From the human T2T-CHM13v2.0 reference genome, Homo sapiens, in the NCBI RefSeq assembly GCF_009914755.1, contig NC_060945.1: a stretch of 64,000 bases of DNA. The stretch is one strand, 5' to 3'. Under the pieces are notes generated by a model. It ran no database searches. It was given only the letters and a program-made list of their open reading frames with translations, and was not told where the DNA came from. Of this stretch, positions 22,004 through 40,027 are shown piece by piece (within the stretch, counting starts at the first letter, position 1; every line of letters begins with the position of its first letter). Both the position numbers and the translations under genes were made by a program.

Positions 22004-22669
22004 AGTACCTTACTTTTTATAACACTTGGATGTAAGAGAGCAGAACAGCATAAGTACAGTCTATCCAATTTTATTTCAAGATACGACAAAAAACAATCAT
22101 TTTTGATGATAGTAAAGGCTTCAGAGTTTTCAATTAGATTCAGTTTATATTTTGGCAAAGAACCCAGGTACAACTAACACCTGCTGAGCCTACTTCCTTC
22201 CCATCAAAGTTTGTTGCCTGCCTTTTTAAACAAATGGAGATCATTTGAGCAGATTGAAAACAGTAATTGGGGTTCAGGGATTTAGCTAATTAAAAATAAG
22301 TGATACTCCTGCACTATGATACCTGAAGCTCATAGGTGCTCTTTTCTAAACATTTACATCCATGTGTTAGTCTTCCATTTTAATATACTTCATGAACAGG
22401 CCTAATCATATAAGTATGAATTTTGTTCATGTACTCTTCAAACTTTTCTGTTACATTCTGTCCTTAGAGATGCATGGCATATTCAAGGAATGAACAAGGA
22501 TAGTCAATGCTCTTAATACTATCAGTAACTTACTTTTTATAACGCTTTGATGTGAGAGAACAGAACAGTATAAATACAGCCTATCCAATTTTATTTCAAG
22601 ATACAACCCAAACAATCATTTTTGATGATTCTGATGAAAGGTTATCATCAAAAATGATAGCAAAGGCTA
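22004..22669. repeat. ~110-bp local direct duplication (22004-22120 / 22524-22669)
   Basis: cttactttttataac...ctatccaattttatttcaagatac...aacaatcatttttgatgat is present twice, 520 bp apart. Confidence 0.9.
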
Positions 22670-22909
22670 TCTTAACTATCCTGACGAGGATACTTAAGAG
22701 AAAGGCTATCCTTGGAAACTGTGAGAATCCCGGAAACTCCTGCTTAAAGAGGAGGAAAATATCTAAAGCCCAACCAAAATTAGTGTGGAGATCCCACAAT
22801 CTGGGCATTGCAAAGCCCATTACCAGAAGCAATGACAATGCACATCCTAGACAATGCTTTACTAATAAATAGCAATATTAACAGCACATTTGGACAGAAG
22901 AATAAAGAG

Positions 22910-22915
22910 TTTATT
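22910..22915 (-). terminator. Putative poly(A) signal of KRTAP13-3
   Basis: First AATAAA on the - strand after the stop codon (~355 nt downstream). Confidence 0.65.
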
Positions 22916-23004
22916 AAAATAAAATCTTTTTCACTTCCTATCTCTTTTGGAAAGAAATACAAAAACTATAAATTATATCTATAATGCAGTTTGGATCACT
23001 CATT

Positions 23005-23074
23005 GATCCAATGGCTTCAGATATCTGAATTATAAAATCCATGCCTTCCCTTCCCAGAGTTATAGATCCAGATT
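23005..23074 (+). repeat. Inverted copy of the KRTAP13-3 coding segment 23353-23422
   Basis: 67 of 70 nt identical to the reverse complement of 23353-23422. Confidence 0.95.
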
Positions 23075-23270
23075 GATCCAGTTATAGATTATTCATTGAT
23101 CCAAACTGCAGTTTGACAGAACTAACATACAACCCAGTTTTTGAGGGCTGGAAAGTAAGGAAGACCTGGTGATCAATAATATTAGAATACTTCTCAAAGG
23201 AAGAAATTAACAGATGACCTTACTAAAGAATATGCATTTCTCAAATGAGTTTTACCAGTCACCACATTAG

Positions 23271-23789
23271 TCAGTAGAAACCAGATCTACAGAATGGCTG
23301 ATAACAAGATGAATGGAACCACCTTCTAGGTGGAAAATAGATTGGATGGCAGAATCTGGATCTATAACTCTGGGAAGGGGAGGTATGGATTCTATAATTC
23401 AGATATCTGAAGCCATTGGATCCACAGCCCAGTGAGGAGCAGCTCCTGGATCCACAGCTCAGGGAGCAGCAGCTATTGGATCCAAAACCCCGAGACCCAA
23501 CATGCATAGTCAGGCAAGAATTGCAGAGCATGTGAGTCCTGGGGTAGTAGCAGGAGGTGTGGCAGGGGCTGGACTCAACACACAATGTCTGACAGCTGTT
23601 GGGCCTCCAGCAGGTCTCCTGACAGCCCCTATAGAGAGAGGAACCCAGCTGGCAGGTGCTGGGAGAGCAGAGGTCAGTGCTGTAGACCAGGTTGCTGGGG
23701 TAGGAAGAGCCACAGGAGGAGCCTGGGTAGTGCAAGTAACCCCCGTGGGAGCAGGAGGAGAAGTTTCTAGAGCAACAGTTGTAGGACAT
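23271..23789 (-). CDS. KRTAP13-3: Keratin-associated protein 13-3 (172 aa, PMG/high-sulfur family)
   Basis: Intronless ORF MSYNCCSRNFSSCSHGGYLHYP...CRSGFY; Cys/Ser rich; 10-aa GS repeats; TATA and poly(A) signals present. Confidence 0.95.
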   Translation of the reverse strand: MSYNCCSRNFSSCSHGGYLHYPGSSCGSSYPSNLVYSTDLCSPSTCQLGSSLYRGCQETCWRPNSCQTLCVESSPCHTSCYYPRTHMLCNSCLTMHVGSRGFGSNSCCSLSCGSRSCSSLGCGSNGFRYLNYRIHTSPSQSYRSRFCHPIYFPPRRWFHSSCYQPFCRSGFY

Positions 23790-23867
23790 GTTGACGGGAA
23801 GATGTGAGTTCAGCTGAGTGTACCTGGGAAGATTCTGAGTTTTAACGTGGCATCCTGGACAGTGTCA

Positions 23868-23893
23868 TTTATATCCTCTCAGCAATAGGTGTG
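23868..23893 (-). promoter_or_regulatory. KRTAP13-3 TATA box and CACACCTATTGCT motif
   Basis: TATAAA 84 nt upstream of the ATG; motif identical to that of KRTAP13-4. Confidence 0.8.
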
Positions 23894-25018
23894 GTGCACA
23901 GCAGAGTCATCCCTCACATTTTTGTGCTCCCTCATTTACATATGTGTAGCTCAGCAATCTTGCCTGTAATCGCATTTGAATACTTTTCCACATGTTGTAT
24001 TTATGCGTGCTATAATTTTGGTGTTATAGCACAAAGCCAATGAACTGCACTTATGCCAGAAATGCTATGACTGTTTCGTATTAATATTTATTTTATTATG
24101 TCTAGGAAAGCACCTCCTTTTCCTCCTAGCATAATTTTCATGTGTCTTGTTATTGGCTGTTATGGGCAATAATTTTCCCTAAACAGTGAGAAATGAGATA
24201 AAGTTACATGTCTTTTTTGTCAATGGATTAGAGACACAACTTTGGCCTTAATGAGAAACCTGCTGAAAACTAAACCTACATGTCACCATCCTTTCTCATT
24301 CCACAAAAGTTTCCTTCATCTATTATGTACTGTTACTCACTGTGTCTCACATCCAGTGTAGAGGGAAAAGTATGAGCCAAGACAAATTGAATAACATTGA
24401 TGCCTATGACCAGAAGGAAACCTGGACAATTATTTGGAGACATGGTGACAGCAAGGGATGGAACTGAGACAATCACAAATGAAAAACAATTCTGGGGCCT
24501 TATGAAGAGAATTAAAGTGTTAAATAAACACACACCATTGAAATGACAGAAAAAAATAAATGAATTTTAGATTCAATGCATCTAATATGAGGCCCATGGT
24601 CCTAAGAGATTCTCATTCATATGTGTGGCAGCCTGGAGAATTCTCATCTCGGATCTTAAATTACAGGAGGCTTAAATAACCAGTGGTCCTACCTGCTGTG
24701 TTCTAAAAGTTAACACTGCATTTTTGGGGAAGCCTTGCTTTCTCTGGGCTGCTCCCAAGCAAAGACTGAGCACAGTGGGATATAGGAATTCCTGGAAGAC
24801 AATTGACGGCCAGCTTTGACTCAGGGTTTCCTCAACGGCCTTAAAGAACTACTGTCTCCTGCATAGGTCTCAAGCACTTCTTTCTCTTTCTCCTTCACTT
24901 GGGCCAGACCTATGTCCAAATCTTACAACTCTCCCAGCCTCTCTCAGGGGAGACTCTGGAAAGAGAAAAAATGCAGAAAATCTGTAAATATTTAATCTTG
25001 TTTATACTTTTTAAAAAG

Positions 25019-37533: not shown

Positions 37534-37883
<350 letters not shown>

Positions 37884-38147: not shown

Positions 38148-38209
38148 GGTAACATTCACACACACACGCTCCTCACTGCAAATCACCTGAGCTCAGAACT
38201 CCTGTTAAC

Positions 38210-38623
38210 ATGTCTTACAACTGCAGCTCTGGAAACTTCTCCTCCTGCTGTTTTGGAAGTTACCTGAGGTATCCAGTTTCCACTTATAATTTGTTCTACC
38301 CCAGCAATGCCATCTATTCTCCAAATACCTGCCAAATGGGCTCCTCTCTCTACAATGGCTGTCAGGAGACCTACTGTGAGCCCACCAGCTGCCAGACATC
38401 CTGCACTTTGGCCAGATCCTATCAGACATCCTGTTACTGCCCAAAGAATTCCATCTTCTGCAGTCCCCGCCAGACTAACTACATAAGATCCCTTGGATGT
38501 GGAAACACTGGCCTTGGATCTCTTGGTTGTGGAAGCACTGGCTTCCAATCTCTGGACTGTGGGTCCAGCTTCTACCACCCAACTACCTTTTCATCCAGGA
38601 ATTTCCAGGCAACTTGTTACTAA
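38210..38623 (+). CDS. KRTAP15-1: Keratin-associated protein 15-1 (137 aa)
   Basis: Intronless ORF MSYNCSSGNFSSCCFGSYLRYP...RNFQATCY. Confidence 0.95.
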   Translation: MSYNCSSGNFSSCCFGSYLRYPVSTYNLFYPSNAIYSPNTCQMGSSLYNGCQETYCEPTSCQTSCTLARSYQTSCYCPKNSIFCSPRQTNYIRSLGCGNTGLGSLGCGSTGFQSLDCGSSFYHPTTFSSRNFQATCY

Positions 38624-39042
38624 CCAGCCTTTGGGTCTCGCCTTTTTGGATCATCTTACTGAATATTCTCCATTCTCTCATGATTATTTCTGTACTCTAT
38701 GGAACTGCAACACTCAGCCTGTCCAATATCTGTGATTGTTGACCATCTACATCAGTAGGACTCAGCATCCTAGCCCTCTTGGAAGTATATGATTGAACAC
38801 GGACAAATTAATCTTGACCTAGGACCCTTCCTAAATCTGACAGGAGATATATCTTGAATTTCAATTTTTGTGCCAATGCTCAGGATCATTTCTGTTATCA
38901 TCTTTCTAAAATCCTTCTCTCATTATTTTCCCAGAACTCTTCCACTCAAATATATTTCAAATAGTTACAATATTTTAAATAAGCTTATTTCTTTGGCATG
39001 AATTCTGGCATTCCATTTTATTTTGTTAATACAATACACTTA

Positions 39043-39345
39043 GGCTGGGCATGATGGCTCACACCTGTAATCCCAGCACTTTGGGAGACCGAGGCTGGCG
39101 GATCACTTTAGGTCAAGAGTTTGAGGCCATCCTGGCCAACACAGTGAAAACCCATTTCTACTAAAAATACAAAAATTAGCAAGGCCTGGTGTGCACCTAT
39201 AATCCCAGCTACTCAGGAGGCTGAGGCAGGAGAATCACTTGAATCTGAGAGACGGAGGTTGTAGTCAGCTGAGATCATGCCACTACACTCCAGCCTGGGC
39301 AACAAAGTGGGACTCTGTGTCAAAAAATAAATAAATAAATAAGTA
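39043..39345 (+). mobile_element. AluS
   Basis: Full Alu with (AAAT)n tail. Confidence 0.9.
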
Positions 39346-40027
39346 AAAATGATACATTTAGTGAATTCATCCCATATCTTCAACTGTCTTCCTTAGGTAC
39401 ACTTTTTGTTTGTTTCATATGTTTTATTGATATTTTGTTGAATAGAAAACAAAGTGCAAAGAAAATTTAAATATATAACCTATCACATGTTTTAAGAGAT
39501 TTAAATCCCCTCATAAGTGCATTTTTTATATATTTGCTTCAGAAAATTTTGTTTTAGTCTTTCATTGAAAAAAAATTTATTGAGGTCCTATTATATACCA
39601 AGCATTACGCTGAACAAAGACACAAATTCTCTGCTTCAGGAAGTTCCCACAAATACAATTATAACTTATATGGCAAATGGAATAATGGGGTGAAGACAAG
39701 ATTCAGTGGGAACACAAAGAAGAACTTCAAAAACACTCAGAGAAAATAATATAAACCCATTATTGAAAATAGAGTAAATAAGTTACACTTAATTTTAGAA
39801 TAACAAATCTTACTGATCTATTGTGTCCATTGCAGTCCCTTGAAAAGCAGCTGCCAAATGGGATTAAACATAAAAAAGATTTATTGGTGAAAATGCCAGT
39901 GATAGATAATGGGGAGGTAGTTGGAGAGGTCTGGGAGAGCCATACTACTGTGGAGTATGTCTAGCCTCAGTGAAGGACAGAGGGAACTAAGTTTGGTCTA
40001 GAAGAAACTTCTTTAAGAAACTCCCCA

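What the first reader, a model, noticed from the sequence alone, without database searches (positions are those of the whole stretch)
23005..23422. KRTAP13-3 mRNA carries a 70-nt antisense copy of its own CDS in the 3' UTR (built-in dsRNA stem)
Seen: 23005-23074 is the inverse of CDS 23353-23422 (codons GSNGFRYLNYRIHTSPSQSYRSRF). It lies between the stop (23271) and the first AATAAA (22915-22910). The transcript could form 67 Watson-Crick pairs, 1 G.U pair and 2 A.C mismatches, closing a 278-nt loop that contains the stop codon. Established: duplexes this long are substrates for ADAR, PKR, Staufen and Dicer, and ADAR favours A opposite C. One mismatched A (23384) is the first base of Thr136 (ACC), so editing would give Ala. 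Inference: possible cis self-silencing, recoding, or small RNAs acting on paralogues. It may equally be a neutral accident.
Basis: partly seen in the sequence, partly recalled or inferred. Interest (0 to 1): 0.85.

Follow-up and report, generated by a model that had tools for sequence, protein, structure and literature searches.

The report
KRTAP13-3 inverted self-copy in UTR
A 70-base piece of the hair-protein gene KRTAP13-3 was copied backwards into the gene's own tail, most likely by a DNA-copying slip, so its messenger RNA can probably fold into a long double-stranded stem whose biological effect has never been tested.

Summary
Arms 23005-23074 and 23353-23422 are 67/70 complementary with 278 nt between them. 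This pair is the only match to the 70-mer in the whole T2T genome.

The UTR arm was copied from KRTAP13-3's own CDS: 95.7% identity, against 71-77% to the paralogues. It shares 9 of the 11 KRTAP13-3-specific derived bases in that segment. A perfect 9-nt direct repeat lies exactly 70 nt apart around it. That is the footprint of a microhomology-mediated templated inverted insertion (template switch).

Of the 3 arm differences, 2 arose in the CDS (Ala136Thr, Phe137Ser) and 1 in the UTR copy. None is compensated, so nothing shows selection for pairing.

The RefSeq model (CDS ±14 nt) ends before the arm. It looks truncated: the first AATAAA after the stop (22915-22910) aligns with the paralogues' poly(A) signals. 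A predicted 957-nt mRNA forms 68/70 arm pairs.

Verdict: a genuine, apparently unreported example of a known mutational kind. A dsRNA stem and ADAR editing are plausible but untested. Function, transcript end and age in primates could not be checked here. Interest is moderate.

The parts
23353..23422 (-). CDS arm (donor): codons 123-146 of KRTAP13-3
   Evidence: Inverted-repeat arm. It is homologous to the same CDS segment of KRTAP13-1, 13-2 and 13-4, so it is the original copy. It holds 21 adenosines, of which 16 would recode if read as G.
23005..23074 (-). 3' UTR arm: reverse-complement copy of the CDS arm, 197-266 nt after the stop
   Evidence: 95.7% to own CDS; 76.7, 73.7 and 70.6% to the 13-4, 13-1 and 13-2 CDS. 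It shares 9 of the 11 KRTAP13-3-specific derived bases.
23075..23352 (-). 278-nt loop between the arms: last 26 codons, stop codon (23271-23273) and proximal 3' UTR
23072..23080 (-). Left copy of the 9-nt direct repeat TGGATCAAT (sense strand); its last 3 nt are the first 3 nt of the UTR arm
   Evidence: identical 9-mers at 23080-23072 and 23010-23002, spacing exactly 70.
23002..23010 (-). Right copy of the 9-nt direct repeat; its first 6 nt are the last 6 nt of the UTR arm
23087..23110 (-). Outer inverted repeat, 5' arm; also holds copy 1 of an 18-nt imperfect direct repeat (23087-23104)
   Evidence: I2: 24 nt, 83%; D1: 18 nt, 89%, spacing 93.
22985..23008 (-). Outer inverted repeat, 3' arm; also holds copy 2 of the 18-nt direct repeat (22994-23011)
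   Evidence: On its own the UTR segment 22975-23120 folds into a local structure closed by this stem, -41.1 kcal/mol, z = -3.2.
23384..23384 (-). A opposite C: first base of Thr136 (ACC); derived G>A change in the CDS (Ala>Thr)
   Evidence: The UTR copy and KRTAP13-1, 13-2 and 13-4 all imply G here.
23380..23380 (-). C opposite the UTR A at 23047: second base of Ser137 (TCC); derived T>C change in the CDS (Phe>Ser)
   Evidence: The UTR copy and all four paralogous sequences imply T.
23035..23035 (-). U of the single G.U pair (partner 23392, Arg133 AGA); this change arose in the UTR copy
   Evidence: The CDS and all paralogues have G.
22910..22915 (-). First canonical poly(A) signal AATAAA after the stop, 356 nt downstream; family-conserved; predicted cleavage near 22889
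23092..23097 (-). Weak variant hexamer AATGAA just upstream of the UTR arm; the only candidate for cleavage before or at the arm
23868..23873 (-). TATAAA box; the base homologous to the annotated KRTAP13-4 start is about 23846, so the RefSeq 5' end (23803) also looks truncated
   Evidence: Read by comparison with the KRTAP13-4 annotation (inference).

Best explanation
A single, lineage-specific, templated inverted insertion. While the DNA was being copied or repaired, the growing strand left its template in the KRTAP13-3 3' UTR at a GGATC-type microhomology. It copied 70 nt of the gene's own coding strand about 280-350 nt away in reverse-complement orientation, then returned. This is a template-switch mutation in the sense of the four-point model. 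It lengthened the 3' UTR by 70 nt, upstream of the family's conserved poly(A) signal, so the mature mRNA most likely carries both arms (inferred). In the nucleus, or on untranslated mRNA, the arms are predicted to zip into a 70-bp near-perfect duplex that encloses the stop codon. Such a duplex should be an ADAR substrate, and translating ribosomes would have to melt it (inferred from established ADAR and ribosome biology). Nothing indicates that the pairing has been selected. The most likely status is a neutral or mildly expression-lowering by-product, and also a molecular fossil of the CDS as it stood when the copy was made. Shown: the repeat, its donor, the junction repeats, the polarity of the 3 changes, the poly(A)-signal homology and the predicted fold. 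Inferred: the mechanism, inclusion in the mRNA, duplex formation in vivo, editing and neutrality.
For: Donor is the gene's own CDS: 95.7% against 71-77% to the paralogues. 9 of the 11 KRTAP13-3-specific derived bases in the segment are shared by the copy. Only two places in the genome match the 70-mer. The rest of the UTR (22700-23270) is unique in the genome, so it is not a transposon. Junctions: a perfect 9-nt direct repeat at exactly 70-nt spacing, 6 nt overlapping one end of the copy and 3 nt the other. There are further nested repeats rich in GGATC (D1, I2). Published template-switch events in great apes have a median copied length of 12 and a maximum of 128, and 65% lengthen the sequence (PMC7954356, passages). 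Template switching creates perfect hairpins in one event (PMC10710096 and PMC8794818, passages). No selection for pairing: of 3 differences, 2 are nonsynonymous CDS changes, 1 is in the UTR copy, and none is compensated. Inclusion in the mRNA: there is no AATAAA or ATTAAA between the stop and 22915. The paralogues' first AATAAA lies 192, 270 and 241 nt after their stops, with annotated UTRs of 217, 296 and 268 nt. The 13-3 signal would sit at 286 nt without the 70-nt insert, and it aligns with theirs. Fold: z = -12.1. The duplex is -118.4 kcal/mol, 68 of 70 pairs form in the modelled mRNA, and forcing the UTR arm unpaired costs 90 kcal/mol.
Against: No outgroup sequence could be examined, so the pre-insertion state, the switch points and the age are inferred from one human haplotype. 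The only curated transcript (NM_181622.2, 23257-23803) ends before the arm, and I saw no cDNA, 3'-end or RNA-seq data. The donor lies 278-348 nt away, outside the +/-100 nt searched in the great-ape scan, and 70 nt is in the upper tail of reported lengths. The nested 18-nt direct repeat and 24-nt outer inverted repeat are not explained by one simple switch-and-return. All 3 differences are transitions that leave wobble-like oppositions (G.U, A.C). That is weakly compatible with tolerance limits on the helix, although three transitions are unremarkable by chance. Lack of compensation over only 3 changes cannot exclude function.
Confidence: 0.65

Rival explanations
1. Selected cis-regulatory or recoding element. 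The CDS-3'UTR duplex is kept because it tunes KRTAP13-3 through translation block, nuclear retention, Staufen- or Dicer-mediated decay, or ADAR recoding of the Gly/Cys-poor segment, or because it yields small RNAs that act on paralogues.
For: The duplex is very stable. An A.C opposition sits at the first base of codon 136 with a 5' U neighbour; the favourable ADAR context is recalled knowledge. 16 of the 21 CDS-arm adenosines would recode. 5 of the 11 lineage-specific changes in the arm are G>A, so A-to-I would mimic the paralogue base at those sites. All-exonic editing duplexes are known for Kv1.1 and AZIN1 (PMC5654063 and PMC10404624, passages).
Against: There are no compensatory changes, and all 3 substitutions weaken pairing. 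The junction microhomology points to an accident. KRTAP13-1, 13-2 and 13-4 have no counterpart. The copy matches paralogue CDSs at only 71-77%, which is poor for siRNA targeting. No literature support was found. Pairwise dN/dS of 13-3 (0.49-0.54) is like that of the other pairs (0.43-0.51).
Confidence: 0.1
2. A genomic inverted repeat only. Mature KRTAP13-3 mRNA ends before or at the UTR arm, through a non-canonical site such as AATGAA at 23097-23092 or as in RefSeq, so no mRNA stem exists. The arms would then meet only in read-through RNA or in the intron of the host lncRNA LOC105372772.
For: NM_181622.2 ends at 23257 (hub annotation). A weak AATGAA hexamer lies 18 nt upstream of the arm. KRTAP13-1's annotated end uses an upstream AATAAA rather than the family-homologous one, so site choice varies within the family.
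Against: The RefSeq model is exactly CDS +/-14 nt, with no poly(A) signal and a 5' end about 43 nt short of the position homologous to the KRTAP13-4 start. It therefore does not look like a full-length cDNA. No AATAAA or ATTAAA precedes 22915. The region around 22915-22889 aligns with the paralogues' poly(A) signal, CA site and GT-rich tail.
Confidence: 0.2
3. Same product, different repair route. The insert was made during double-strand-break repair by polymerase-theta-type end joining with snap-back or templated synthesis, or by several rounds of replication slippage, rather than by one switch-and-return at a replication fork.
For: There is microhomology at both junctions. Nested short direct and inverted repeats around the site suggest more than one priming step (D1, D2, I2).
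Against: Templated insertions by end joining are usually much shorter than 70 nt (recalled knowledge, not checked here). No flanking deletion scar can be assessed without an outgroup.
Confidence: 0.25
4. Assembly artefact, or a private variant of the CHM13 haplotype.
For: Only one haplotype was examined.
Against: The arms differ at 3 of 70 positions. Two of these are CDS changes relative to the state kept in the copy, which needs long evolutionary time, not an assembly error or a recent private event. The CDS arm sits in the curated coding region.
Confidence: 0.02

Closest known systems
Short-range template-switch mutations (four-point model; Loytynoja & Goldman 2017, PMC5453318; Walker et al. 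2021, PMC7954356; Monttinen et al. 2022/2023, PMC8794818 and PMC10710096)
   Same: A nearby segment is copied in reverse complement into the nascent strand. This creates a perfect inverted repeat or hairpin in one event, usually lengthens the sequence, and later picks up point changes (passages).
   Different: The copy is 70 nt, against a reported median of 12 and maximum of 128. The donor is 278-348 nt away, beyond the +/-100 nt those scans search. The donor is protein-coding and the acceptor is the same gene's 3' UTR, so the hairpin spans the stop codon.
[quoted passage not shown]
   Same: In these cases the editing duplex is made only of exon sequence and persists in mature mRNA (PMC5654063 and PMC10404624, passages). 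KRTAP13-3 is a single-exon gene, so any duplex partner must also be exonic.
   Different: Those are short, imperfect, conserved hairpins with site-selective editing shown by experiment. Here the duplex is 70 bp and near-perfect, which predicts promiscuous editing (recalled knowledge). No editing data exist and conservation is unknown.
Inverted Alu pairs in 3' UTRs (the main source of long dsRNA and ADAR editing in human mRNAs)
   Same: They give a long intramolecular duplex in an mRNA tail and expected ADAR, PKR and Staufen engagement. The window itself holds several inverted Alu pairs.
   Different: These arms are unique sequence rather than repeats. They are 96% complementary against 75-85% for the local Alu pairs. 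One arm is coding.
Inverted duplication of a target gene as the origin of small-RNA loci (plant MIRNA model; cited as ref. 12 in PMC10710096, reference list seen)
   Same: A hairpin is built from an inverted copy of a gene fragment.
   Different: Here the copy sits in cis in the same transcript, in a mammal, with no small-RNA evidence. Rfam gives no family match at its gathering score.

Membership tests
Template-switch (templated inverted insertion) mutation | The new fragment is the reverse complement of a nearby segment of the same locus | tested here: met
   67/70 match to the gene's own CDS 278 nt away. It is the only other match in the genome. Paralogues match at only 71-77%.
Template-switch (templated inverted insertion) mutation | Switch points marked by microhomology or a short duplication at the acceptor site | tested here: met
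   TGGATCAAT occurs at 23080-23072 and 23010-23002, spacing exactly 70, overlapping the copy by 3 and 6 nt. The pre-event sequence is inferred, not observed.
Template-switch (templated inverted insertion) mutation | An ancestral or outgroup sequence lacks the fragment (the event can be placed on a tree) | not testable with these tools
   No non-human primate genome is reachable. There is only relative dating: 9 derived bases are shared by the copy, 2 are CDS-only and 1 is copy-only.
Template-switch (templated inverted insertion) mutation | Size and distance within the published short-range spectrum | tested here: inconclusive
   The length of 70 is within the reported maximum of 128 but far above the median of 12. 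The donor distance of 278-348 nt exceeds the +/-100 nt those scans examine.
ADAR recoding substrate with an exonic complementary sequence | A stable duplex of about 20 bp or more that contains the adenosine | tested here: met
   Predicted only: the duplex is -118.4 kcal/mol, with 68/70 pairs in the MFE and mean pair probability 0.96 in the modelled mRNA.
ADAR recoding substrate with an exonic complementary sequence | Both strands of the duplex lie in one transcript | tested here: inconclusive
   The RefSeq end at 23257 excludes the arm. Poly(A)-signal position and paralogue homology argue for an end near 22889.
ADAR recoding substrate with an exonic complementary sequence | A-to-G differences between RNA and DNA at the site | not testable with these tools
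   No RNA data were available. The search 'KRTAP13' plus 'RNA editing' gave 1 paper with incidental co-occurrence (listing only).
Inverted-Alu 3' UTR dsRNA | Both arms are Alu (repeat) copies lying in the UTR | tested here: not met
   The arms are unique in the genome, lie outside the masked intervals the hub lists, and one arm is coding.
Known structured RNA family or miRNA precursor (Rfam 15) | Match at the family's gathering score | tested here: not met
   The best hits in 22500-24000 are far below threshold, for example snoR27 at 25.8 against 41 bits and mir-5365 at 24.6 against 70.

The most novel reading that the evidence does not exclude
KRTAP13-3 is a natural 'self-hairpin' mRNA. In hair-forming keratinocytes its CDS and 3' UTR zip into a 70-bp duplex that ADAR1 edits heavily, recoding up to 16 positions of a structural hair protein. 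Those include three Tyr>Cys and four Arg>Gly changes. At five sites (23416, 23393, 23386, 23384, 23363) editing would read out the G that all three paralogues carry. In effect, editing would partly undo the lineage's G>A drift, so a primate-specific replication accident would have been co-opted for protein diversification or dosage control. A weaker version, in which the duplex forms and is detectably edited without adaptive value, is considerably more likely (my estimate about 0.4, conditional mostly on the arm being in the mRNA).
Probability: 0.08. Interest if true: 0.7.

Novelty: new member of a known kind. Interest (0 to 1): 0.38.

Why it matters
This is an unusually large and clean human example of a templated inverted insertion. 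Donor, acceptor, junction repeats and later point changes can all be read from one haplotype. It shows how one replication or repair error can give a single-exon protein-coding mRNA a 70-bp internal duplex across its stop codon.

If the arm is transcribed, which is likely, the locus is a ready-made natural test. It asks what a long, near-perfect CDS-UTR duplex does to editing, translation and mRNA fate in a tissue (anagen hair follicle) that editing atlases sample poorly. It also asks whether a G>A coding substitution inside a duplex (Thr136, ancestral Ala) is masked by editing.

The UTR copy also dates two amino-acid replacements (Ala136Thr, Phe137Ser) to after the insertion. Practically, it flags NM_181622.2 as probably truncated at both ends. 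A hairpin of this strength could itself hinder cDNA cloning and read mapping of the true 3' UTR; that is speculation.

Tried and rejected
- Paralogue donor or gene conversion: rejected. The copy is 95.7% identical to the gene's own CDS against 76.7, 73.7 and 70.6% to 13-4, 13-1 and 13-2 and a weak match to 13-5P.
- Transposon or MITE origin of the UTR segment, or of the outer inverted repeat: rejected. The stretch 22700-23270 matches only itself and the CDS arm in the genome. The search skips very common words, so this is a lower bound.
- L1-type retro-insertion with target-site duplication: rejected. There is no poly(A) tract, and the 9-nt repeat overlaps the copied sequence itself.
- Known RNA family or miRNA: no hit at gathering score.
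- Link to nearby MIR4327: no significant similarity to any KRTAP13 gene (best E = 0.38).
- Relaxed constraint on KRTAP13-3 as a sign of silencing: pairwise dN/dS is 0.49-0.54 for 13-3 against 0.43-0.51 for the other pairs. This is uninformative about the period since the insertion.
- Expression and 3'-end evidence. Rogers et al. 2002 (JBC 277:48993), which first described the human KAP13 genes, is not held. [quoted passage not shown]
- Protein evidence. A scalp-follicle proteome (PMC13600778; only the first 300,000 of 1.09 million characters are held) lists KRTAP13-2, and no KRTAP13-3 appeared in the held part. PMC4137660 has no KAP13 mention in its main text. 'KRTAP13-3' plus 'alopecia' gave 2 irrelevant papers. 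One search was too loose to be useful. Supplements of these papers were not opened and may hold expression tables.
It returned plant, TE and miRNA papers, and none on a CDS-UTR self-duplex in a human gene.
- L005 (the KRTAP13-6P region) was fetched but never analysed.
- A single unambiguous four-point solution that also explains the 18-nt direct repeat and the 24-nt outer inverted repeat: not reached without an outgroup.
Full report
**1. The observation**

Read on the minus (sense) strand, KRTAP13-3 runs from ATG 23789 to stop 23273-23271.
- The repeat finder finds one outstanding inverted pair in 22500-24200: arms 23005-23074 and 23353-23422, 70 nt, 96% complementary, 278 nt apart.
- A base-by-base script confirms 67 Watson-Crick pairs. 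The exceptions are one G.U (UTR 23035 / CDS 23392) and two A.C oppositions (UTR 23047 A / CDS 23380 C; UTR 23043 C / CDS 23384 A).
- The same script shows that 23384 is the first base of codon 136 (ACC, Thr), and that complementarity collapses immediately outside the arms.
- As RNA, 22980-23440(-) folds at -182.3 kcal/mol against -110.6 +/- 5.9 for 100 dinucleotide shuffles, z = -12.1.
- The 70-mer matches only itself and the CDS arm in the 3.1-Gb genome.
- Of the ten inverted pairs of 60 nt or more within 2 kb in the window, the other nine touch intervals the hub lists as masked repeats and are 75-85% complementary. This one is unmasked and 96%.

**2. Where the copy came from**

The CDS arm is the original. 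The same segment aligns codon for codon with KRTAP13-1, 13-2, 13-4 and the 13-5P pseudogene.
- The UTR arm is 95.7% identical (in reverse complement) to KRTAP13-3's own CDS. It is only 76.7, 73.7 and 70.6% identical to the CDSs of 13-4, 13-1 and 13-2.
- I looked at columns where 13-1, 13-2 and 13-4 agree. The KRTAP13-3 CDS has 11 lineage-specific bases within the arm, and 9 of them are shared by the UTR copy.
- The copy was therefore made from KRTAP13-3 itself, late on its own branch.
- The rest of the 3' flank (22700-23270) is unique in the genome apart from the arm, so no transposon is involved. The 3' UTRs of the paralogues have no counterpart of the arm.

**3. Junctions and mechanism**

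On the sense strand, TGGATCAAT occurs at 23080-23072 and again at 23010-23002, exactly 70 nt apart.
- The last 3 nt of the left copy are the first 3 nt of the arm. The first 6 nt of the right copy are the last 6 nt of the arm.
- The simplest reading is a 70-nt gain at a site that already shared 6 + 3 nt with the two ends of the donor segment. The donor is itself bracketed by GATCC motifs.
- Around it lie an 18-nt imperfect direct repeat (spacing 93) and a 24-nt outer inverted repeat with a 13-nt perfect core (22985-23008 / 23087-23110).
- I could not reduce all of these to one switch-and-return without an outgroup. More than one priming step, or a pre-existing small palindrome, may be involved.
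- The pattern is that of template-switch mutations, in which a nearby segment is copied in reverse complement and creates a perfect inverted repeat in one step (PMC5453318, PMC8794818 and PMC10710096, passages).
- In great apes the copied fragment has a median of 12 nt and a maximum of 128 nt, 65% of events lengthen the sequence, and only templates within +/-100 nt were searched (PMC7954356, passages).
- The present case is therefore in the upper size tail. At 278-348 nt it lies outside the distance such scans cover.
- Break repair with templated synthesis would give the same product and cannot be excluded.

**4. What has happened since**

I polarised the three arm differences with the paralogues.
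- At 23392 the CDS keeps the G of all paralogues, and the UTR copy changed.
- At 23384 the UTR copy and 13-1, 13-2 and 13-4 imply G while the CDS has A. This is Ala136 (GCC) to Thr (ACC).
- At 23380 the UTR copy and all paralogous sequences imply T while the CDS has C. This is Phe137 (TTC) to Ser (TCC).

All three changes weaken pairing and none is compensated. With only three events, this fits neutral divergence but cannot exclude constraint.

Three differences in 70 nt (4.3%) suggest an age of the order of hominoid to catarrhine divergences. The calibration is recalled, the Poisson range is wide, and conversion between the arms would make it an underestimate. Pairwise dN/dS of KRTAP13-3 (0.49-0.54) resembles that of the other family pairs and says nothing specific about the period since the insertion.

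**5. Is the arm in the mRNA?**

The curated transcript (23257-23803) would exclude it. That model is exactly the CDS plus 14 nt on each side.
- It has no poly(A) signal, and its 5' end lies about 43 nt inside the position homologous to the annotated KRTAP13-4 start, with a TATAAA at 23873-23868.
- Between the stop and the arm there is no AATAAA or ATTAAA, only a weak AATGAA at 23097-23092.
- The first AATAAA is at 22915-22910, 356 nt after the stop. In 13-1, 13-2 and 13-4 the first AATAAA lies at 192, 270 and 241 nt, and the annotated UTRs are 217, 296 and 268 nt.
- Without the 70-nt gain, the 13-3 signal would be at 286 nt.
- The sequence around it aligns with the poly(A) regions of 13-4, 13-2 and the second signal of 13-1, including the downstream CCAAAT and GT-rich stretch.

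I therefore predict an mRNA of about 957 nt (about 23846 to about 22889) that carries both arms. This is inference, and I give it about 0.75.

**6. Predicted behaviour**

- The two arms alone pair at -118.4 kcal/mol.
- In the modelled 957-nt mRNA, 68 of 70 arm pairs are in the MFE structure and the mean pair probability is 0.96. Forbidding the UTR arm from pairing costs 90 kcal/mol.
- If the CDS arm is unavailable, for example when covered by ribosomes, the UTR segment folds locally. That structure is closed by the outer inverted repeat, at -41.1 kcal/mol, z = -3.2.
- From established knowledge, not tested here, a 70-bp near-perfect duplex in a nuclear transcript is a good ADAR1/ADAR2 substrate and is edited promiscuously. 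A opposite C with a 5' U is a favoured site, such duplexes can bind PKR and Staufen, and ribosomes must unwind the CDS arm.
- The CDS arm has 21 adenosines, and 16 would recode if read as G. These include Y129C, Y132C, Y142C, R128G, R133G, R143G, R145G and T136A.
- Five of the 11 lineage-specific changes in the arm are G>A, so inosine would mimic the paralogue base there.

Known all-exonic editing duplexes (Kv1.1 in an intronless transcript; AZIN1 with a complementary sequence in the next exon, edited by cytoplasmic ADAR1 p150) show that the principle is viable. Those are short, imperfect, conserved structures (PMC5654063 and PMC10404624, passages).

**7. Literature and novelty**

- Searches for 'KRTAP13-3' returned 46 papers, of which 25 were listed. 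They were mostly sheep and goat genetics and a senescence-associated methylation site.
- Searches for 'KAP13.3 / hKAP13.3 / KAP13-3' and for 'KRTAP13' plus 'RNA editing' gave nothing on this repeat, on the gene's 3' UTR or on editing (listings).
- The founding human KAP13 paper is not held. I found no usable human expression or protein evidence for KRTAP13-3, and I did not open supplements.
- Within that library, the feature appears unreported.
- In kind it is a new member of a known class, the template-switch or templated inverted insertion that creates hairpin potential. Its uncommon twist is that one arm is coding and the helix spans the stop codon of a single-exon gene.

**8. Verdict**

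- Best explanation (0.65): a neutral or mildly deleterious templated inverted insertion that very probably endows the mRNA with a long duplex.
- Selected function: about 0.1.
- Arm not in the mature mRNA: about 0.2.
- Interest is moderate (0.38). The case is clean and testable with ordinary follicle RNA and primate assemblies, but nothing yet shows biology beyond a mutational footprint.

Noticed in passing
window 37554-37883 and 39038-39355: KRTAP15-1 (38157-38751, +) is bracketed by an inverted pair of Alu-like repeats (recognised from recalled Alu sequence). Arms of 60-170 nt are 76-82% complementary (I2, I5, I9, I14). Both lie outside the annotated transcript, and the downstream one starts about 290 nt past the annotated 3' end.
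   Followed up: no
window 23016-23029 and 23398-23411: Each arm contains the same perfect 14-nt palindrome, TTCAGATATCTGAA. It is reported as a direct repeat because it is its own reverse complement (D3), so each arm can also form a small local hairpin.
   Followed up: no
L003 (KRTAP13-1 3' flank), 192 and 280 nt after the stop: KRTAP13-1 has two AATAAA signals. Its RefSeq end (UTR 217 nt) uses the first, whereas the second is the one that aligns with the poly(A) signals of 13-3, 13-4 and 13-2. This may be alternative polyadenylation.
   Followed up: partly
window 23257-23803 (NM_181622.2): The RefSeq model equals the CDS plus exactly 14 nt on each side. It lacks a poly(A) signal and starts about 43 nt downstream of the position homologous to the KRTAP13-4 start. 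It is probably truncated at both ends.
   Followed up: partly
KRTAP13-3 CDS 23271-23789: KRTAP13-3 carries 59 lineage-specific base changes, against 32 for 13-4, 8 for 13-1 and 14 for 13-2, counted in columns where the other three genes agree. Of the 59, 31 are C>T or G>A. Its C-terminal third has lost several Gly and Cys residues found in the paralogues (alignment).
   Followed up: partly
window 22615-22629 / 22644-22658: A perfect 15-nt inverted repeat with a 14-nt spacer lies downstream of the gene (I3). It underlies sub-threshold miRNA-like Rfam hits (mir-5365 at 24.6 bits against a gathering score of 70; mir-153 at 20.8 against 54). It is AT-rich and probably chance.
   Followed up: no
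L006 1165-1249 (MIR4327, about 3 kb from KRTAP13-2): The annotated miRNA hairpin folds at -31.9 kcal/mol and has no significant similarity to any KRTAP13 gene. It is therefore not a gene-derived inverted copy like the one studied here.
   Followed up: yes
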